In this document: positions 25,886-33,622 of the stretch, in pieces | How the letters are laid out: each line of letters opens with the position of its first letter | How positions within the stretch are numbered: position 1 is the stretch's first letter | Assembly (NCBI GenBank): GCA_964508365.1 | Contig: CAZDTP010000003.1 | Coordinates: 34,589-98,588 of the forward strand | Direction: 5' to 3' | Length of the DNA stretch: 64,000 nt | Source: an uncultured archaeon | Lineage (GTDB): Archaea > Asgardarchaeota > Lokiarchaeia > Sigyniarchaeales > SOKP01 | The notes under the pieces: generated by a model | The model's database searches: none | What the model was told of the DNA's origin: nothing | The model's input: only the letters and a program-made list of their open reading frames with translations | Position numbers and translations under genes: made by a program

Positions 25886-27004
25886 TTACTTCTTTAGGAA
25901 ATGTCTATAAATTGTCACATAGTTTTTTACACTTACTACTCTAGGATTACGCCTAAAATTAGAAGGAATAAGAGCACTACAGCGTGAACAGAGTTTTGAA
26001 GTCTGCATCCAATCTTTAAATTCATCAGCGTGGGAAGGATACCTGCAGTTTGGACATACAACTACTCCTCGTCCTCTATCTTCCGGAAGTTTTGGTAATT
26101 TAAAACAAAAGATACACTTGAAATCCTCTAATGTTAAATATGATCCTTTTGGTTTAAATTTGTCAAAATTTTGGATTTTTGAAGTTGATTTAGTTCTAGT
26201 TATATGAGTTGCATTTGATGTTTTTTTTCTAGTGGTTTGCTTTTTTGACGTAGGAGTTATTCTTGATGATTGAGTTCTAGATCTTGTTGTACGAGTAGTT
26301 GCTCTAGTAGAGGGTGTTGGATTAGTTACCCTTGTTGTCCTTACATTCTGTCTCTGTATTGTAGGTGTGGTTAAACTATTAATAGTTCTAGTACGATTTG
26401 CGATGTAATCACGAGTTAATGTAGGTAGTGATGAGCGTGTATTAGTAAATCCAAAAAGTATTACTATTAAAATCGTAGCAATTAATAGCAGCAAGAGATT
26501 TAAGTCTAATGGAAAACTTTCAATAGAACCATAGAAAGTTATCCAATAAGTTAGAATGAAAATAAGAACTGAGATTGATAACATGTACCCTAGCGTTCTC
26601 GCTTTTACTGCCTTTGTTCCAAAGTATATTACATTGTATTTCTTAAAACAACGATATAAAGAGTAAGAACCATACAATATGTAAGGAAAAGCAAAAATTA
26701 GGCTCCATAAACTAAAATATACCCCTCCGAGAAGATTTTCACCCAATACACCTGTATAAAAACCCCATATAGAATAAAAAATTCCCACACATAACGGAAG
26801 AATTACAAAAAATGCAGTATTTTGTGGTGAATTAAACTCACGATGACGTTTTATGTTTTCAAATATTTTTAAAGTGAATATTAACCATAACCCAATTAAT
26901 AACCAAGTAACAAAATTAGAAAAAGAATAGGAGAGTAAACCATGGATTGCACCAATTATTAGAAAAATAGTACATATTATTGTTATAGTTTTATTTCTTG
27001 CCAT
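25886..27004 (-). CDS. Multi-pass membrane protein with a C-terminal RING-like Zn finger (putative E3 ligase)
   Basis: About 6 hydrophobic helices (aa ~6-186), a Thr/Arg/Ser-rich linker, then C-x2-C-x16-C-x2-C-x4-H-x2-E-x3-W-x6-C-x2-C; last gene of the Ub-E1-E2-JAB run. Confidence 0.75.
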   Translation of the reverse strand: MARNKTITIICTIFLIIGAIHGLLSYSFSNFVTWLLIGLWLIFTLKIFENIKRHREFNSPQNTAFFVILPLCVGIFYSIWGFYTGVLGENLLGGVYFSLWSLIFAFPYILYGSYSLYRCFKKYNVIYFGTKAVKARTLGYMLSISVLIFILTYWITFYGSIESFPLDLNLLLLLIATILIVILFGFTNTRSSLPTLTRDYIANRTRTINSLTTPTIQRQNVRTTRVTNPTPSTRATTRTTRSRTQSSRITPTSKKQTTRKKTSNATHITRTKSTSKIQNFDKFKPKGSYLTLEDFKCIFCFKLPKLPEDRGRGVVVCPNCRYPSHADEFKDWMQTSKLCSRCSALIPSNFRRNPRVVSVKNYVTIYRHFLKK

Positions 27005-27036: not shown

Positions 27037-27843
27037 TTATTCATCATATTCTAAATATGCTGGTTTCCCTTCAATAATTGGATTCATGAATTCTAAAATT
27101 TCTGGTAACATTCTCACATCTAAATGGCCCTTAATATCAAAAGGTACCGAGTACCATTTTTTAGTTTTAAAATTTGCACGATAGATCTCAAAACCTACAG
27201 ATTTTCCGTTAATTTGATAAGGATCAATTACTAAAGCTACTGATTTATCCCAAAATTGCTGATATCGCCTTTGAGTCCCTAAGTCTTCTCTAGACATGAA
27301 ACATCCATATGAGGGATGAGAATGATACCATCCACAAATAAATTGCTTACTTTTTACAATATCTTCATATGCTCGAGTAAAATTGTTATAATCTTTAATT
27401 TCAGCATAGACTGCAGTGCCGTGACCCATTGGATATGCATCTTCTAAATATAATATTCCATTGTCATAGCTTCCAGCGAGTAACCCAATCACCTCAACCC
27501 AGTTCTCTTTCCTAATTTTGGAATTCGCATATTTCAACGAATGACTTGAGATCTTTAGGATAGCTTTTACAGTTATTTTTATCTTTGCAGAAATTTTATC
27601 ACTTTTATCACCTTTAGCGATAGTTATTACAGGTTCCATTGGAATTGGTTCTAATTTGGTTTTTATACTTTCTGAATGGTTTAAAGATTTCGCATCAAAA
27701 ATTTCAGCGGTTATTTCTTCCTGTAATTCTTCGAGTTGTAATTCGGTGTATACTTCCTCAAGTATTTCTTTTTTGATCTTTTCCTTTATTTTTTGTTTAA
27801 TTGCATCTCTAATTTTTTCACCATTCTCATCGTTAATTTTCAT
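27037..27843 (-). CDS. JAB1/MPN+ (JAMM) metalloisopeptidase, Rpn11/CSN5-like
   Basis: EVIGLLAG...GWYHSHP...MSREDLGTQ...LVIDP. Confidence 0.93.
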   Translation of the reverse strand: MKINDENGEKIRDAIKQKIKEKIKKEILEEVYTELQLEELQEEITAEIFDAKSLNHSESIKTKLEPIPMEPVITIAKGDKSDKISAKIKITVKAILKISSHSLKYANSKIRKENWVEVIGLLAGSYDNGILYLEDAYPMGHGTAVYAEIKDYNNFTRAYEDIVKSKQFICGWYHSHPSYGCFMSREDLGTQRRYQQFWDKSVALVIDPYQINGKSVGFEIYRANFKTKKWYSVPFDIKGHLDVRMLPEILEFMNPIIEGKPAYLEYDE

Positions 27844-27847
27844 AAAA

Positions 27848-28375
27848 TCACCATTTATCCTTCGCGTATTTCTTTACCAAATTCCTAACTTTTTTTTCAA
27901 AATTTTTCTGATCTTTCATCATCTCAATAGCTGCCTTTTTGTTAAAAACATCAGTTGGATTAACATATTTTCCACGAGTGTTTAACATAGCAATTATTGC
28001 TTGAACAACTGTAACCGCTGTTTTTGAAGGACTCCATCCCCCTTTTTTGCCAGTTAGAGAAGGATCTACTAAAGCTAAGCAGATATTTCTTTGTCCTTTA
28101 TATTCACTTGGCTTTGGCCAAAAGTTTGGATGCCATATCGGAGTATGCAATCTAACAAAAGGAGGCTGATTTGGATATTGAACAGGAAACTTCATTTCTA
28201 ATTTAAACAATCCTCCTGCATAAGCAGTGCCTTTAGGACCTTTAATCGTAACAGCTAAGTGATCGATGCTCTTTTTTTTTGGATTAAATGGCTTTAATTG
28301 GATAATTGTACCTTCCTTTAGCAACTTTTTTAGTCCCGCAAAATCTCGGGAAACTCGACTACTTCTTATACTCAT
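27848..28375 (-). CDS. Ubiquitin-conjugating enzyme E2
   Basis: GPKGTAYAGGLF, FPVQYPNQPP, WHPN, catalytic ICL, WSP. Confidence 0.95.
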   Translation of the reverse strand: MSIRSSRVSRDFAGLKKLLKEGTIIQLKPFNPKKKSIDHLAVTIKGPKGTAYAGGLFKLEMKFPVQYPNQPPFVRLHTPIWHPNFWPKPSEYKGQRNICLALVDPSLTGKKGGWSPSKTAVTVVQAIIAMLNTRGKYVNPTDVFNKKAAIEMMKDQKNFEKKVRNLVKKYAKDKW

Positions 28376-28441: not shown

Positions 28442-29677
28442 TTATTTAAATTTTAAGGTTACATAAATCTCTCCACCTTTAAACCCCGCAACTGTGAGAA
28501 ATTCGTAATTCCTCAAATCGTTTTGTACAAGAGTTTGGTCATTATCTAAAACGACAATATCATTAAAATCTAATAAAGTTAAAACCGGTTCAAATTCAGA
28601 TTCCAATTCATATCCATTTCTTTCTAGTGTTTTAATTAAATTTGTACAAGGTGAAGTACTCTTCATTTTAATGGAAACTCGTCTTACCTTTTTACCGCAC
28701 TGAGAACATTCTGGATTTCTCTTCTTTTCAATGTGGTATAGTTTCATTGTCACAGCATTAAATATCACATAACTTGTAATAGGCTGACCTAATCCTTTAT
28801 GACCCCTTTTCCAATGAAGGATTTTAACCACCTCATGAGATTGTAATGCCGAAATAGTTGCGTTAATTGTAATTATCCCAGGATCGTGGCGATCAATAAT
28901 TTTTACAATATCATCTTCGGTATATTCAGGTAAGAAATTGTGTTTTACAACAAGTTCATTTGCAACTTTTTGAATAAATCTAATATCTTCTACATTTTTA
29001 GGATTTGGATCTGTGTCAAATTTATCTTTAAAGGCCATATCTCCTTTAAAGACACAATGAATTCTTTTTCGAGGGATGCCAACCACCGTGCAAGCTGCCA
29101 TTTCATCACTTTTGAGATCTGGCAATGGATTGCATTCATAACATGCATTTCGATATGGAAATATCGTATATATGTGACCATAATAACCAGAAACCCCTCC
29201 ATCTACTAAAGGTTTTCTGAATCTAATGCATTGAGCGTTTAAATTTAGCCTTGCGTTCATTGAATCAAGACCTCCAATTACAACATCTGCATTATAATAG
29301 AGTGCAGGGTTTAATCTTTCTAAGGATGAATGATACCCTTTAACAATAATATTTGGATTAATTTCGACTAATTTTCTTGCAGCTGCAATTGCTTTGGGTT
29401 CTCCTAACTTTGCGCCCACAAACAGAATTTGACGGTTCAGGTTAGAATGTTCAATTATGTCTAAATCGACAAGATCTATATGACCTACCCCTAACATGGT
29501 TAAGTTTTTAGCAATTTCACATCCTAAACCTCCTACGCCAGCTATTAATACTCTCGACTTTTTTACTAATTTCTGGGACCATCCTTCTAAACGAAATTGA
29601 CGATCGTATAAGTCTCTCTCTTCTTCTGACATTCCCTTTGCAAAAAAATCTGAATTCTTACGCAATATTATCACCAT
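28442..29677 (-). CDS. Ubiquitin-like activating enzyme E1 (UBA3/UBA2-like)
   Basis: YDRQ, GVGGLG, DLDIIEHSNLNRQ, CYEC and CSQC zinc pairs, catalytic ACTVVGIPRKRIHC; likely start TTG a few codons in. Confidence 0.93.
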   Translation of the reverse strand: MVIILRKNSDFFAKGMSEEERDLYDRQFRLEGWSQKLVKKSRVLIAGVGGLGCEIAKNLTMLGVGHIDLVDLDIIEHSNLNRQILFVGAKLGEPKAIAAARKLVEINPNIIVKGYHSSLERLNPALYYNADVVIGGLDSMNARLNLNAQCIRFRKPLVDGGVSGYYGHIYTIFPYRNACYECNPLPDLKSDEMAACTVVGIPRKRIHCVFKGDMAFKDKFDTDPNPKNVEDIRFIQKVANELVVKHNFLPEYTEDDIVKIIDRHDPGIITINATISALQSHEVVKILHWKRGHKGLGQPITSYVIFNAVTMKLYHIEKKRNPECSQCGKKVRRVSIKMKSTSPCTNLIKTLERNGYELESEFEPVLTLLDFNDIVVLDNDQTLVQNDLRNYEFLTVAGFKGGEIYVTLKFK

Positions 29678-29750: not shown

Positions 29751-30086
29751 TTATTTAAAAGTACCCGCTGTGCTTGCAGGGATTAAAAGTATATCGTCGC
29801 CATCATTAACATTATAGTCTTTTAACTGGCTACTCTCATCCATTGTTCTTCCACCAGAAGAAAGATGGAACTCATCTGGATCAAGTCCGAATAGATTTCC
29901 TAATGTTTGTTTGATATCGCTTACGTTATTTGCGTCATTTACAGTTAACTTTTCCTTCTTTTCACCAGGACCAATAGTTGACATGAAATATAAAGTCAAC
30001 TTCTTACCTGTTGAGGGAACTTTGCTTGATGGGGTTTTAGATTTAACTGGTTCTAACTCCTCATCAAAATCTTCATTATAACCCAT
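29751..30086 (-). CDS. Ubiquitin-like protein 1 (acidic N-tail, C-terminus ...STAG-TFK)
   Basis: beta-grasp pattern KLTLYF...VSDIKQTL...FHLSSGGRTMDES..LKDYNVNDGDDILL; first gene of the E1-E2-JAB run. Confidence 0.88.
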   Translation of the reverse strand: MGYNEDFDEELEPVKSKTPSSKVPSTGKKLTLYFMSTIGPGEKKEKLTVNDANNVSDIKQTLGNLFGLDPDEFHLSSGGRTMDESSQLKDYNVNDGDDILLIPASTAGTFK

Positions 30087-30348
30087 TTTAATCGTTTCTC
30101 TTATTTTTTTTTTAAAGTTTTTTTTTTAAACTTAATAATATCAAGTTAAAATGATATTAAAAAACCCATTGGAATGATTTTGAAGTTTTTTGAATTTTTG
30201 TTTAAAATATAAGTATCTACATCAAAAAACCTAATATCATATATTTATAAATTAAATGAATGACTATCAATATATATAAATAGGAAAATATCGTATTAGA
30301 GAGAAGATTTGATTATATAAATCAATTTATTCAACACGTTAAAATCAA

Positions 30349-31032
30349 TTGCTTATGAGCACTCCAGATAACCTTCAATCTATTGTTTGTAATCTAATAA
30401 AGGAATATCTAAAAAAGAAACCTTTCTTTTCAATAGAAGATATTGTAATGTTCATCAGTAATAGGGTAAGAACTAACCCTAATTTGAACAAACGCAGCAT
30501 TGAAATCATCATTAAAAATCTCATTAAAAGAAGAATTCTAATCCCTGGAACTAAATTAATGAAAAATAATATCATCGAGCATCCAATAAGAAATGAAATC
30601 TATAATTATATAAGAAAGAATCCTTCGAATGTTAATGATATAATGAAAGCAATTAATATTGGGAGTAATCAAGCGTTATGGCATTTATCTTGCTTAGAAA
30701 AATTTAGATTTACAAGATCAACAAAAATCGAGAATCAAAGAATAATTTTTGAATATGAATCAAATTCAGATCTAGATGAGTTGTATTACTATTTAAAACA
30801 GGATATTGTACAAGATATTATCAACCTACTGAAAAAAGAAAACACCTCATTTAAAATTACGGAAATTGCTGCCAATTTAAAAAAAAATTACAATACTGTA
30901 AAAAAATATCTTGAAATATTAGGAACTCTGAAAATATTAAAAATTGAAAAAAATAAAAAAAGAGTTTTATTCAGATTAGATCAAGAGAAATATGATAATA
31001 TTAGGAAATCCATTATTGATGGTGAATTATAA
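30349..31032 (+). CDS. Tandem winged-HTH transcriptional regulator
   Basis: RNEIYNYIRKNP...LWHLSCLEKF and ITEIAANLKKNYNTVKKYLEIL; divergent from the Ubl operon. Confidence 0.8.
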   Translation: MLMSTPDNLQSIVCNLIKEYLKKKPFFSIEDIVMFISNRVRTNPNLNKRSIEIIIKNLIKRRILIPGTKLMKNNIIEHPIRNEIYNYIRKNPSNVNDIMKAINIGSNQALWHLSCLEKFRFTRSTKIENQRIIFEYESNSDLDELYYYLKQDIVQDIINLLKKENTSFKITEIAANLKKNYNTVKKYLEILGTLKILKIEKNKKRVLFRLDQEKYDNIRKSIIDGEL

Positions 31033-31111
31033 AATTTACAAAGTTATTCCAATGGAATTTATATTTTGAATTATATATTAGAAAATTAGATAATACTTTA
31101 ATCAAAAAATC

Positions 31112-31900
31112 ATGAAGAAGAAATATAGAGTTTTAAATATCATAACTCTTTATGTTGTTTTCACTTTAATTTATTTGATTTTTTTCATATTCCAAATAGA
31201 GAGTTTACCTTTATTTCTCTTTCTAACTATTGGGAGTGTTGCTGTATTATCTACCAGCACGATCTATACCGTTGTTAAATCTAAAAGCAGTCCAGCGAAG
31301 AGGATAAAAAAAGATAAATATTATCAAAAACCAAAATCAATCAAAAGAATATCGAGTGATTTGATTGAGGATTACTTCGAAGCCATGCCATTAATAGATC
31401 AATACGCTGATACTGATGTATCTTTTGAAAATGTAGAATCAATCGATGATTATATCTTCACTTTTTTCAAACAAGAGGAAGTAGATAAAATCGATTTGTT
31501 AGGGTTTTCAAAAATGGATAAAATCTTTTTTATCAGAGAGATGTTGTATTTTGATGCTGGTGAGAGAAAGCAGCTAATCGAAGATATTTTGAAAAATAAA
31601 GATATAACTGATGAACAGATAAAATACTACCCGCCTTTAAACATAATTGGATTGAATGATAAATTACGCGTTTACATAAGGTCATTAGTCGAACCTGGTG
31701 AGAAGACCAAAATACTCATAATTGAAACCTCCGAATTAATAAGTATAATCAAAGAACAAGTTGGAATTCTATTTGATTATGGTTTAGAAGATTTTTCCCT
31801 ATCCACAGGAGGTTTAATATTAGATGAAACTAAGCAGATAAAGGACTATTTTATTGACGAGGATGACGAAATTGCTTTAATTCCATCAAAAAAAAAATAG
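31112..31900 (+). CDS. Membrane-anchored protein with a C-terminal ubiquitin-like domain lacking a terminal Gly
   Basis: Two N-terminal TM helices; C-terminal RSLVEPGEKTK...LSTGGLILDE...DEDDEIALIPSKKK is paralogous to the two soluble Ubls. Confidence 0.85.
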   Translation: MKKKYRVLNIITLYVVFTLIYLIFFIFQIESLPLFLFLTIGSVAVLSTSTIYTVVKSKSSPAKRIKKDKYYQKPKSIKRISSDLIEDYFEAMPLIDQYADTDVSFENVESIDDYIFTFFKQEEVDKIDLLGFSKMDKIFFIREMLYFDAGERKQLIEDILKNKDITDEQIKYYPPLNIIGLNDKLRVYIRSLVEPGEKTKILIIETSELISIIKEQVGILFDYGLEDFSLSTGGLILDETKQIKDYFIDEDDEIALIPSKKK

Positions 31901-31919
31901 AATTATTTTTTTTATAGTT

Positions 31920-32339
31920 TTATATCCTTTCAATATAACAACCAGCAACACTCGCTGGAATTAATAAAATGTCATCTCCATCATCTACATTGTAATCACT
32001 CAGCGTAGATTCTTCATCCATGGTAACTCCTCCAGAAGACAAATAAAAATCAGATGGATCTAAAGCAAATAAATTCGCTATAGTATCTTTAATATCTCTT
32101 ACCATATTACCCGTGAAGACGGTAAGCTTTTGTTTTTTCTCCCCTGGTCCTATAGTGGATAAAAAAAAAACTGAAATCTTTTTTCCTTCAGAAGAGATTG
32201 TGGGTTCTGGAGTTTTAGATCTAATATCTTCTGTTTGGTCCTTTTTAGACTGATCATCAATATCTTTATCCAAGCTTTCATCAATTTCCTCATCGAATTC
32301 TTCATCGAACTCCTCTTCAAATTCATCGTCAAAATCCAT
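31920..32339 (-). CDS. Ubiquitin-like protein 2 (long acidic N-tail, C-terminus ...SVAG-CYIERI)
   Basis: Core closely matches Ubl1 (STIGPGEKK.KLTV, LSSGG.TMDE, DYNV.DGDDILLIPAS). Confidence 0.88.
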   Translation of the reverse strand: MDFDDEFEEEFDEEFDEEIDESLDKDIDDQSKKDQTEDIRSKTPEPTISSEGKKISVFFLSTIGPGEKKQKLTVFTGNMVRDIKDTIANLFALDPSDFYLSSGGVTMDEESTLSDYNVDDGDDILLIPASVAGCYIERI

Positions 32340-32518: not shown

Positions 32519-33622
32519 ATGAAGGATAAACCTATTCCTAAGTATCAAATTCGAGAAAAAACACCCGAAGAGCAACTAGACACCATTCCTAAAACAAAAT
32601 TACTTAAAAAAATTAAGGAAGAAAGAATTAAATTAAATAGAGAAAAAACTGAATGGGAGAGCGTTATTAGCAAAGTTGAAGGTTATCAAGATAATATTCA
32701 AGATTTAGAAAAAAAAAGAAAAGAAAAAGAACTTCAAGTCAGAGACCTTCAAAATCAACACGAAAAACTAAAAAACGATCTAGACAATATGAGAAATGAA
32801 TTAAAAGAAAGTAAAAATAATCTATATGAGAAAGAAAGGGAGTTAGATCAAAAAAATGCTGACTTAGAGCGATATCAAGAGAGATTAGATGGACTAAGAG
32901 ATGAATTAGAGAGTGAGAAGAAAGACTTAGAAAGAGAAAAAGAAAAAGCAAAAGAAAGAATTAAAGAAATTAAAACCAAATTACCCGGAATGGAACGGAG
33001 AGAGAGTGCCTTAGAGAGAACAATTGAAAAGTTGGAAAACAATTTAATGGATTTAAGAAACGAAGGTAAGAGTTTAACGAGAGAAAGAGATAATTTAAAC
33101 AATGAAATCAATAGTTTGAGAAGAGAGATAGTAGATGAAAAAAATCGAATTGATGATGAGAAAAGAAGATTAAAAGATGAAAAAGAAAAGGTTCGCTATA
33201 AGAAAAAAGACTTAAGTCTCAAAGCTCGTGATATTGAAAAAAAAAAAGAGCAATTGGGAAAATTTAAAGAGGATGTAGATCACGATGTAAAAGACTTAGA
33301 AAGAAAGAAAAAAGGGCAAGAAGTAAGATTAAAGGAATTAGATAGGAAGGTACCTAAGGCAGAAGATACTTATTTTTCATTAGAACATAAAATTGGTAAC
33401 TTAGAAAATAAACTGAAAAGCTTAAAAGATGAAATAAAAAAACTGGAAAAGGAAAAATCGAAAATAGAAGACGATAAATTTTCAATTAGAAAGGAGAGGC
33501 AAAGATTAGAAAGTGATAAAGAGAGATTTCTTAAAGAAAAAAGAGATTTTGAAAGAGAATTGAAAAAAACAAAAGAAATCCCAAAATATAAAATCAAATC
33601 AAAAACGCCTTCGAGATATTAA
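32519..33622 (+). CDS. Long coiled-coil protein with repeated terminal motifs
   Basis: About 320 aa of K/E/R/L-rich heptads; IPKYQIREKTP at the N-terminus and IPKYKIKSKTP at the C-terminus; no TM or ATPase motif. Confidence 0.85.
   Translation: MKDKPIPKYQIREKTPEEQLDTIPKTKLLKKIKEERIKLNREKTEWESVISKVEGYQDNIQDLEKKRKEKELQVRDLQNQHEKLKNDLDNMRNELKESKNNLYEKERELDQKNADLERYQERLDGLRDELESEKKDLEREKEKAKERIKEIKTKLPGMERRESALERTIEKLENNLMDLRNEGKSLTRERDNLNNEINSLRREIVDEKNRIDDEKRRLKDEKEKVRYKKKDLSLKARDIEKKKEQLGKFKEDVDHDVKDLERKKKGQEVRLKELDRKVPKAEDTYFSLEHKIGNLENKLKSLKDEIKKLEKEKSKIEDDKFSIRKERQRLESDKERFLKEKRDFERELKKTKEIPKYKIKSKTPSRY

What the first reader, a model, noticed from the sequence alone, without database searches (positions are those of the whole stretch)
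29751..32339. Two Ubl paralogs ending in single-Gly ...AG plus a propeptide, with SUMO-like acidic N-tails
Ubl1 ends PASTAG-TFK and Ubl2 ends PASVAG-CYIERI. Similarity between them stops exactly at the Gly, as expected for a cleavage site. Ubiquitin, SUMO and SAMPs end in GG; single-Gly modifiers such as UFM1 and ATG8 are the eukaryotic exceptions. Both carry disordered acidic N-tails (about 25 and 50 aa). Inference: JAB removes the tail to expose AG, defining a separate modifier class; the two paralogs sit in separate transcription units.
Basis: partly seen in the sequence, partly recalled or inferred. Interest (0 to 1): 0.72.

Follow-up and report, generated by a model that had tools for sequence, protein, structure and literature searches.

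The report
Asgard ubiquitin-type tags ending Ala-Gly
Two neighbouring genes of a Loki-type Asgard archaeon encode ubiquitin-family protein tags whose reactive end is Ala-Gly instead of Gly-Gly, with their own activating, conjugating and trimming enzymes next door; this is a widespread lineage variant of archaeal ubiquitin, apparently running beside a separate Gly-Gly tag in the same cell.

Summary
Ubl1 (29751-30086, minus) ends ...LLIPASTAG-TFK and Ubl2 (31920-32339, minus) ends ...LLIPASVAG-CYIERI. They are 63% identical, and each has a disordered N-terminal extension.

The Gly is the conserved end. All 240 close homologs and all 136 Ubl ORFs in 80 species-representative loci carry x-S-x-A-G. 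100 of the 136 stop exactly at the Gly; the rest have 1-9 variable residues. Natural two- and three-unit tandem genes join directly after ...AG.

The proteins are ubiquitin-family beta-grasps, closest in structure to Caldiarchaeum ubiquitin. Ubl1 heads an operon with a UBA1/2/3-type E1, a UBC E2, an Rpn11-like JAB and a membrane zinc-finger protein. This module recurs in several Asgard classes.

It is therefore a variant of the known archaeal ubiquitin operon, not a UFM1 or ATG8 relative. The "propeptide" is optional, so JAB is probably mainly a deconjugase that also trims tails.

The genome also holds a highly conserved Gly-Gly Ubl and a second E1-E2 pair. This gives partial support to "separate modifier class".

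The tail carries a conserved [IV][KR][SE]KTP motif, also found at both ends of the neighbouring coiled-coil protein.

Conjugation itself is untested. The scan reached the same reading on other genomes (e1-5569159, e1-5702188).

The parts
29751..30086 (-). Ubl1: 111-aa ubiquitin-family modifier precursor and first gene of the operon. The beta-grasp spans residues about 28-103; the C-terminus is ...LLIPASTAG followed by TFK.
   Evidence: PF00240 32.7 bits; AlphaFold2; Foldseek top hit is Caldiarchaeum ubiquitin
29754..29765 (-). Codon of Gly108 (29763-29765), the predicted mature C-terminus, followed by the three-residue tail TFK (29754-29762).
   Evidence: AG invariant; tails absent or variable; tail residues 100-110 modelled against the JAMM site
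30003..30086 (-). N-terminal extension of Ubl1 (residues 1-28): acidic-aromatic head, then V-K-S-K-T-P and a Lys/Ser/Pro-rich stretch. Predicted disordered.
   Evidence: K17 and P19 invariant, T18 nearly invariant; pLDDT below 50
31920..32339 (-). Ubl2: 139-aa paralog, monocistronic. C-terminus is ...LLIPASVAG followed by CYIERI (Gly133 codon 31941-31943; tail 31923-31940).
   Evidence: 107 of 120 close homologs end exactly at AG
32181..32339 (-). N-terminal extension of Ubl2 (residues 1-53): repeated acidic-Phe units, then I-R-S-K-T-P.
   Evidence: 24 acidic and 6 basic residues
28442..29677 (-). E1-like activating enzyme (411 aa), ThiF family. It has two CxxC pairs, and Cys196 aligns with the catalytic Cys173 of human UBA2.
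   Evidence: PF00899 190.8 bits; UBA2 4e-36, UBA1 about 1e-34, UBA3 about 5e-32, UBA5 2e-14
27848..28375 (-). E2 (175 aa), UBC fold with HPN at residue 82 and Cys99.
   Evidence: (PF00179 94 bits)
27037..27843 (-). Rpn11-like JAB/MPN metalloprotease (268 aa) with Glu117, H174-S-H176 and S184-x-x-D187. Predicted to trim tails and remove the tag from targets.
   Evidence: PF01398 51.8 bits; closest solved relative CsRpn11, 4e-16
25886..27004 (-). Membrane protein with a Thr/Arg-rich linker and a C-terminal zinc finger, in the E3 position of the operon.
Evidence: only sub-threshold RING-family hits. Homologs follow JAB in other Asgard classes.
31112..31900 (+). Membrane-anchored protein (262 aa) whose C-terminal domain is a paralog of the Ubls but ends ...ALIPSKKK with no Gly. 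It is a non-conjugatable Ubl domain.
   Evidence: 34% identity to Ubl1; phmmer 1e-15; family P0312, P0317, P0344, P0380; syntenic
30349..31032 (+). Tandem winged-helix protein (227 aa), conserved between the two Ubl genes.
32519..33622 (+). Coiled-coil protein (367 aa) carrying I-P-K-x-x-I-[KR]-[SE]-K-T-P at both ends, the same motif as in the Ubl tails. It is divergent from Ubl2.
   Evidence: motif conserved in orthologs; a neighbour in another Asgard class ends ...IRTKTP

Best explanation
Ubl1 and Ubl2 are conjugatable ubiquitin-family modifiers of a Lokiarchaeial (Asgard) ubiquitylation system whose reactive C-terminus is Ala-Gly.

Inferred mechanism:
1. Where a tail is present (TFK, CYIERI), the operon's Rpn11-like JAB metalloprotease cuts after Gly108 or Gly133.
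2. The E1 adenylates the Gly carboxylate and takes it onto Cys196.
3. The tag passes to Cys99 of the UBC-type E2.
4. It is ligated to Lys residues with the help of the membrane zinc-finger protein.
5. JAB reverses the modification.

The N-terminal extension stays on the mature tag and carries a conserved [IV][KR][SE]KTP motif of unknown role.

Shown here: sequence, fold, family-wide conservation, gene context and a supportive complex model. Inferred: every chemical step.

The system is a lineage variant of the Caldiarchaeum/Asgard ubiquitin operon. It coexists with a separate Gly-Gly Ubl.
For: C-terminus:
- x-S-x-A-G is present in 240/240 homologs. 34/120 of the Ubl1-like and 107/120 of the Ubl2-like proteins end at Gly; the others carry unrelated 1-9-residue tails.
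- In 80 species-representative loci, 136/136 ORFs carry the motif and 100 end at Gly.
- The same end is found in other Asgard classes.
- Four independent 2x/3x tandem genes join units directly after ...AG. Each unit has its own N-tail.

Family:
- PF00240 matches all 28 of 28 members tested.
- The best PDB sequence matches are all ubiquitin.
- The Foldseek top hit is CsUb. VIA gives Z of about 13 to ISG15 and ubiquitin.

Enzymes:
- E1 is closest to UBA2, UBA1 and UBA3, and its catalytic Cys aligns.
- E2 is UQ_con with HPN and Cys.
- JAB is closest to CsRpn11, which cleaves the CsUb precursor and CsUb conjugates in vitro (PMC6043591).
- Gene gaps in the operon are 4-73 nt.

Context:
- The locus is syntenic in other genomes.
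- The Ubl-E1-E2-JAB-TM/Zn module is present in three further Asgard families.

Complex model (JAB 80-268 with Ubl1 26-111):
- Score 0.83, best control 0.23. The mark was reached by 58 of 80 solved complexes and 2 of 110 mismatched pairs.
- Runs agree in at least 91% of contacts; partner pLDDT is at least 87.
- Ubl residues 100-110 touch JAB residues 117, 174, 176, 184 and 187.
- A like complex is solved, so the pass may come from memory.
Against: - No biochemical evidence exists for cleavage, thioester formation or conjugation in this family.
[quoted passage not shown] An Ala at that position therefore needs co-adapted enzymes, which I did not demonstrate.
- Most orthologs need no trimming, so the maturase role of JAB is secondary at best.
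- The RING nature of the last gene was not confirmed here; only sub-threshold Pfam hits were found.
- Ubl2 falls 0.2 bits under the Pfam ubiquitin cut-off.
Confidence: 0.8

Rival explanations
1. The AG Ubls are the Asgard counterparts of eukaryotic UFM1, the single-Gly modifier, rather than of ubiquitin.
For: - Both have a single Gly preceded by a small hydrophobic residue and followed by a short propeptide.
This is the same Ile-Pro + 4 residues + Gly spacing as ...LIP-ASTA-G.
- PMC12962969 reports structure-detected 'Ufm1 homologues' in nine Asgard clades. They have long disordered termini, partial hits and multiple hit regions per protein. Those features also fit this family's tails, fusions and tandem genes.
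- The genome encodes a UFL1/DDRGK-domain protein.
Against: - Pfam Ufm1 (PF03671) matches nothing in the genome at E up to 1 and none of 28 family members at E up to 10, whereas ubiquitin matches all 28.
- E1 is UBA2/1/3-like (about 1e-36) rather than UBA5-like (2e-14).
- E2 is UQ_con, and no UFC1 was found in the genome.
- The protease is a JAMM enzyme.
- All 60 best PDB sequence matches are ubiquitin.
Confidence: 0.07
2. The proteins are non-conjugated ubiquitin-like domain proteins (adaptors or regulators). The C-terminal Gly has no chemical role and the tails are not removed.
For: - Conjugation has not been shown.
- A clearly non-conjugatable paralog, the membrane Ubl domain ending ...IPSKKK, lies in the same locus.
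- Hub1-type Ubls act without conjugation (PMC8431670 abstract).
Against: - An invariant AG that is the natural stop in 100 of 136 ORFs, with unconstrained sequence after it, is the signature of a reactive C-terminus.
- There is tight operon linkage with E1, E2 and JAB across classes.
- Tandem head-to-tail genes exist.
Confidence: 0.06
3. The Ubls are sulfur carriers of the MoaD/ThiS/SAMP type, activated by the ThiF-family enzyme for thiocarboxylate formation.
For: The E1 belongs to the ThiF family. One database source named a homolog 'molybdopterin converting factor small subunit' (P0210).
Against: - The E1 has the catalytic-Cys segment and aligns best with eukaryotic UBA2, UBA1 and UBA3.
- A UBC E2 and a zinc-finger protein are in the operon.
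- The Ubl matches ubiquitin rather than ThiS in Pfam.
- The genome has separate small ThiF-like genes, one next to a JAB, for such roles.
Confidence: 0.02

Closest known systems
Ubiquitylation operon of Candidatus Caldiarchaeum subterraneum (pro-ubiquitin CsUb, E1-like, E2-like, CsRpn11, small RING finger protein; PMC5654768, PMC6043591)
   Same: - Same gene set, with the modifier at the head.
- CsUb is the top structural match of Ubl1, and CsRpn11 is the closest solved relative of the JAB.
- CsUb is also made with a C-terminal extension, which CsRpn11 removes.
   Different: - CsUb ends Gly-Gly and has no long N-terminal extension.
- Here the end is Ala-Gly, the tail is optional, and the tag carries a conserved N-tail with a KTP motif.
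- The E3 candidate is membrane-anchored.
- The locus has a second modifier gene and a membrane Ubl-domain paralog.
Asgard (Helarchaeial / Heimdallarchaeial) ubiquitin systems linked to ESCRT (PMC9192718; bioRxiv 10.1101/2023.07.25.550441)
   Same: - Asgard E1-E2-RING cascade with a pro-ubiquitin. The Hel pro-ubiquitin has a four-residue extension.
- In vitro activity was shown for the Hel enzymes.
   Different: - Those ubiquitins have the Gly-Gly motif and sit with ESCRT genes.
- This family has Ala-Gly and no ESCRT genes in the locus.
- It was found in 193 of 399 Asgard genomes searched.
Eukaryotic ubiquitin and polyubiquitin genes
   Same: - After the family's own members and fusion proteins, eukaryotic polyubiquitins are the next group of matches in the 1.8-billion-protein library.
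- Beta-grasp fold.
- Head-to-tail tandem precursor genes exist in this family too.
   Different: - About 20% identity.
- The C-terminal segment is P-A-S-T-A-G, not L-R-L-R-G-G.
- Each tandem unit includes a disordered N-terminal extension of about 40 residues.
SUMO
   Same: - Disordered N-terminal extension on a beta-grasp modifier.
- Dedicated E1 and E2. The E1 here scores best against SUMO E1 UBA2.
   Different: - SUMO ends Gly-Gly and is processed by cysteine proteases.
- Pfam Rad60-SLD is only sub-threshold here.
- The tail motif is unrelated.
- The resemblance is by analogy.
UFM1
   Same: Single Gly after a small hydrophobic residue, a short propeptide, and Ile-Pro + 4 residues + Gly spacing (the UFM1 sequence is from memory).
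   Different: - No Pfam Ufm1 match.
- The E1, E2 and protease are of the ubiquitin type, not UBA5, UFC1 or UfSP.

Membership tests
Ubiquitin family (Pfam PF00240) conjugatable modifier | Beta-grasp fold with sequence match to the ubiquitin profile | tested here: met
   PF00240 scores 32.7 bits for Ubl1 (cut-off 25.4) and 25.2 for Ubl2, and matches 28/28 family members. AlphaFold2 gives a beta-grasp with pLDDT of about 90. Foldseek and VIA best matches are CsUb, ubiquitin and ISG15.
Ubiquitin family (Pfam PF00240) conjugatable modifier | C-terminal Gly-Gly | tested here: not met
   The end is Ala-Gly in 240/240 and 136/136 relatives.
Ubiquitin family (Pfam PF00240) conjugatable modifier | Conserved terminal Gly that is the natural end or is followed by a variable extension | tested here: met
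   tandem junctions.
Ubiquitin family (Pfam PF00240) conjugatable modifier | ATP-dependent activation, thioester transfer and isopeptide formation | not testable with these tools
   Needs biochemistry.
Caldiarchaeum/Asgard-type ubiquitylation operon | Linked genes for modifier, E1 with catalytic Cys, UBC E2 and Rpn11-like JAMM | tested here: met
   The arrangement is conserved.
Caldiarchaeum/Asgard-type ubiquitylation operon | RING-type E3 | tested here: inconclusive
A zinc finger with seven Cys/His ligands is seen in the sequence. Pfam RING families score only at E 0.2-0.4.
UFM1 system | Match to the Ufm1 profile (PF03671) | tested here: not met
   No match in the genome at E up to 1, and none in 28 members at E up to 10.
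UFM1 system | UBA5-type E1 and UFC1 E2 | tested here: not met
   E1 scores 4e-36 to UBA2 against 2e-14 to UBA5. E2 is PF00179. No PF08694 match was found in the genome.
UFM1 system | Structural likeness to UFM1 above that to ubiquitin | tested here: inconclusive
   UFM1 is not listed among the 50 best rows of either structure search. A family that is not listed is not excluded.
SUMO | Match to the SUMO-type profile and a Gly-Gly end | tested here: not met
   Rad60-SLD scores 18.5 bits against a cut-off of 23.8. The end is Ala-Gly.

The most novel reading that the evidence does not exclude
Lokiarchaeia and some other Asgard classes run two orthogonal ubiquitin-type systems, as eukaryotes run ubiquitin beside SUMO or NEDD8.

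- One is a highly conserved Gly-Gly Ubl, served by another E1-E2 pair.
- The other is the Ala-Gly family, with its own E1, E2, JAB and membrane E3.

Features that would go with the Ala-Gly system:
- The N-tail [IV][KR][SE]KTP motif is the recognition or acceptor site. It is shared with a coiled-coil substrate encoded next door.
- The tag can be made as a polyprotein.
- In some lineages the tag is fused to the C-terminus of whole proteins (Roadblock, zinc-ribbon, vWA, ATPase), which would then be ligated to targets through their own Ala-Gly end.
Probability: 0.35. Interest if true: 0.75.

Novelty: new variant of a known kind. Interest (0 to 1): 0.55.

Why it matters
Asgard ubiquitin systems are used to reconstruct how eukaryotic ubiquitin signalling arose. 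The Gly-Gly end is treated as nearly universal for ubiquitin-type tags.

This family is large: it was found in 193 of 399 Asgard genomes searched. It shows that the canonical E1/E2/Rpn11 machinery can run on an Ala-Gly end.

It also suggests that multiple parallel modifiers, tandem precursor genes and tail-borne linear motifs already existed in archaea.

There is a practical consequence. The last Lys or Arg of Ubl1 lies 19 residues before the Gly, so tryptic di-Gly remnant proteomics would not detect this modification in cultured Lokiarchaeia.

Tried and rejected
- **Literature:** six full-text searches found no paper that describes an Ala-Gly Asgard ubiquitin. This is absence in the held library only.
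- **PDB entries 8HM1-3 and 8YPT**, which matched the family profile, turned out to be Bacteroides ubiquitin homologues, not archaeal.
- **Asgard 'Ufm1 homologues' of PMC12962969:** I could not check whether they are this family. No supplementary files are held, and neither the paper nor its preprint names sequences.
- **UFM1 in structure searches:** it does not appear among the 50 best rows of Foldseek or VIA. This does not exclude likeness.
- **Tandem poly-Ubl genes** lie on contigs of 1.2-1.6 kb, so their gene context could not be read.
- **P0393** (Ubl fused to E1, 534 aa) lacks the ...LLIPASTAG end. It looks like a frameshift or gene-call artefact, not a natural fusion.
- **GG Ubl versus AG profile:** profile-profile comparison gave only a weak match (probability 9%), so their relationship is unresolved beyond a shared Pfam family.
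- **Second E1 and the GG Ubl:** the second E1 is not adjacent to the GG Ubl in the five genomes checked. Their pairing rests on phyletic pattern only.
- **Co-adaptation:** I did not attempt residue-level analysis of how the JAB or E1 pockets accommodate Ala.
Full report
**What is there**

The window comes from a Lokiarchaeial (Asgard, "Promethearchaeota") MAG with about 30% G+C. On the minus strand five genes lie 4-73 nt apart:
- Ubl1 (30086..29751)
- a ThiF-family E1 (29677..28442)
- a UBC E2 (28375..27848)
- a JAB/MPN protease (27843..27037)
- a membrane protein with a C-terminal zinc finger (27004..25886)

Upstream and divergent are a tandem winged-helix protein (30349-31032) and a membrane protein whose C-terminal domain is a Ubl paralog ending ...ALIPSKKK (31112-31900). 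Next comes Ubl2 on the minus strand (32339..31920). A divergent coiled-coil gene follows (32519-33622). The whole nine-gene arrangement is syntenic in unrelated metagenomes and MAGs.

**The observation**

Ubl1 (111 aa) and Ubl2 (139 aa) share 64 of 102 aligned residues. Ubl1 ends ...LLIPASTAG+TFK and Ubl2 ends ...LLIPASVAG+CYIERI. The AlphaFold2 model built on a 28-sequence alignment has a confident beta-grasp (residues 28-103, pLDDT about 90). The N-terminus (1-23) and the last three residues are of low confidence. The description is correct.

Three points were missed:
- A third AG paralog lies on another contig.
- The membrane Ubl-domain paralog lies between the two genes.
- Ubl1's tail is bipartite rather than simply acidic (6 acidic and 4 basic residues in 28).

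**Is the Gly a real end?**

This is the strongest result.
- Among the 240 best homologs of the two proteins, every one has [AS]-S-x-A-G. 34 of 120 Ubl1-like and 107 of 120 Ubl2-like proteins stop exactly at the Gly. The rest carry unrelated tails of 1-9 residues, such as YF, RLI, K and CFE.
- In 80 loci from species-representative genomes, 136 of 136 Ubl ORFs have the motif and 100 stop at Gly. 56 are followed directly by the E1, and 49 loci show the JAB at the expected distance.
- A profile search of 399 genomes of the phylum finds the family in 193. These include families from other classes (f13, f15, f16, f17, f28), where the proteins again read acidic tail, KTP motif, beta-grasp and ...IP-x-STAG, with or without a short tail.
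- In three of those distant genomes the Ubl again sits with E1, E2, JAB and the membrane zinc-finger protein.
- Four independent genes encode two or three head-to-tail units joined directly after ...AG. Each unit has its own N-terminal extension.

The tandem genes imply cleavage after the Gly, as with polyubiquitin. They also imply that the extension belongs to the mature tag.

**What kind of modifier?**

- Pfam ubiquitin matches all 28 members tested. Ufm1 matches none.
- The family profile and Ubl1 itself find only ubiquitin and ubiquitin variants among solved structures.
- Foldseek ranks Caldiarchaeum ubiquitin first. An exhaustive structural alignment puts ISG15, ubiquitin and Dsk2-UBL at Z 12-13 and SUMO near 11.4.
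- In the 1.8-billion-protein library, after the family's own members and fusion proteins, eukaryotic polyubiquitins are the next group of matches.
- The E1 aligns best with SUMO E1 UBA2, UBA1 and UBA3 (about 1e-36 to 1e-32), far better than with UBA5 (2e-14). Its Cys196 falls on UBA2 Cys173 (the catalytic role of Cys173 is from my own knowledge).
- The E2 has HPN and Cys99.
- The JAB has Glu117, His174, His176, Ser184 and Asp187. It is closest to CsRpn11, then to Rpn11 and CSN5.

So this is the known Caldiarchaeum/Asgard ubiquitin operon with a changed C-terminus. It is not a UFM1-, ATG8- or Urm1-type system.

**Processing**

CsRpn11 is known to cut the CsUb precursor after Gly-Gly. It tolerates Ala at the penultimate position only poorly (PMC6043591). 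A natural Ala-Gly end therefore implies co-adapted enzymes, and I did not show this.

The complex model of JAB 80-268 with Ubl1 26-111 supports binding:
- Score 0.83, best control 0.23. The mark was reached by 58 of 80 solved complexes and 2 of 110 mismatched pairs.
- Runs agree in at least 91% of contacts, and partner pLDDT is at least 87.
- Ubl residues 100-110 lie against the JAMM catalytic residues.

Because Rpn11-ubiquitin complexes are solved, this shows likeness, not proof. Since most orthologs have no tail, the conserved job of JAB is more likely deconjugation. Tails look like tolerated drift of the stop codon.

**A separate class?**

- The genome also encodes an 83-residue Ubl ending ...TQAGG. 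It is at least 89% identical across the family and about 62-81% identical elsewhere in the class. It is present in 69 of 80 class genomes sampled, sometimes with 1-2 extra residues.
- The genome also has a second E1 (525 aa) and E2 on contig C6, and a small ThiF+JAB pair.
- One complete relative (G148, 100% complete, 10 contigs) has no AG Ubl and only the second E1, yet keeps the GG Ubl.

This pattern fits two independent modifier systems. The pairing of the GG Ubl with the second E1 is inference.

**The N-terminal extension**

It is conserved, not merely disordered. K17 and P19 of the K-T-P motif are invariant and T18 is nearly invariant.
- [KR][SETA]KTP occurs in only 8 of about 3,800 ORFs of the genome. 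Four of these are the three AG Ubls and the neighbouring coiled-coil protein, which has it at both ends.
- The terminal motifs are conserved in orthologs.
- A neighbour gene in another class also ends ...IRTKTP.
- In fusion proteins the motif is repeated in the linker before the Ubl domain.

Its role (acceptor lysine, docking site or phospho-site) is open.

**UFM1**

UFM1's single-Gly end has, from memory, the same Ile-Pro + 4 residues + Gly spacing. A 2026 paper reports structure-detected Ufm1 homologues in Asgard archaea without naming sequences. I could not exclude that its cluster overlaps this family. Every test I could run points to ubiquitin instead.

**Verdict**

This is a new variant of a known kind, and the scan has already met it in other genomes (e1-5569159, e1-5702188).

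Noticed in passing
G000:C1:58412-58660 (L001:1492-1740, minus): A highly conserved 83-aa ubiquitin-family protein ends ...TQAGG. In this genome it has no ATG, GTG or TTG start. Where relatives have ATG before T-Q-Y-R-F, this genome and some others have ACG, and others have ATT. This suggests a near-cognate start codon on a very conserved gene.
   Followed up: partly
G000:C6 (L103:7524-9101 plus strand; L103:9911-10420 minus strand): A second E1 (525 aa, ThiF) and a second UBC E2 (169 aa) lie near each other, with no Ubl or JAB beside them. The E1 is conserved at 51-73% identity in relatives.
   Followed up: partly
Genome G148 (same family, genus g2): This complete relative lacks the AG Ubl and the operon-type E1 but keeps the GG Ubl and the second E1. 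It is a natural test of independence of the two systems. In genus g2, 1 of 5 genomes has the AG Ubl.
   Followed up: partly
window 32519-33622; L005:3460-4581; L008:5648-6784; L119:8843-10030: The coiled-coil protein next to Ubl2 carries I-P-K-x-x-I-[KR]-[SE]-K-T-P at both termini. This is the motif of the Ubl tails, and it is conserved in orthologs and in another Asgard class.
   Followed up: partly
Proteins P0241, P0242, P0391, P0392: These genes encode two or three tandem AG-Ubl units, each with its own N-tail, joined directly after ...AG. They are polyubiquitin-like precursor genes in Asgard metagenomes. All lie on short contigs.
   Followed up: partly
Proteins P0245-P0251, P0257, P0260, P0265, P0269, P0277, P0279, P0283, P0394; L119:10072-11814: Whole proteins carry the KTP linker and an AG-ended Ubl at their extreme C-terminus. 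By eye, their N-terminal parts look like a Roadblock-like domain, a Y-N-C-P-K-C zinc-ribbon with coiled coil, a vWA-type domain and a P-loop ATPase. They might be ligated to targets through their own Ala-Gly end.
   Followed up: no
window 31112-31900: The membrane-anchored Ubl-domain paralog without a terminal Gly (...ALIPSKKK) belongs to a conserved family (P0312, P0317, P0344, P0380) that is always in this locus. It may be a docking or decoy Ubl at the membrane.
   Followed up: partly
G000:C1:154043-156415 (L116:433-2805, minus): A 790-aa protein combines DDRGK, E3_UFM1_ligase (UFL1-like), PCI and VPS28 domains. The genome has no Pfam-detectable Ufm1 or UFC1.
   Followed up: partly
L014 (DATKTW010000176.1) and protein P0122: Contigs 93-99% identical to this Asgard locus are labelled 'Candidatus Nanopelagicaceae bacterium' in the public record. 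This is probably a mis-binned or mislabelled MAG.
   Followed up: no
window 25886-27004 versus the Ubl tails: The E3 candidate's linker is strongly basic (Thr/Arg/Lys-rich), while the Ubl N-tails, especially that of Ubl2, are strongly acidic. Electrostatic recruitment is conceivable.
   Followed up: no
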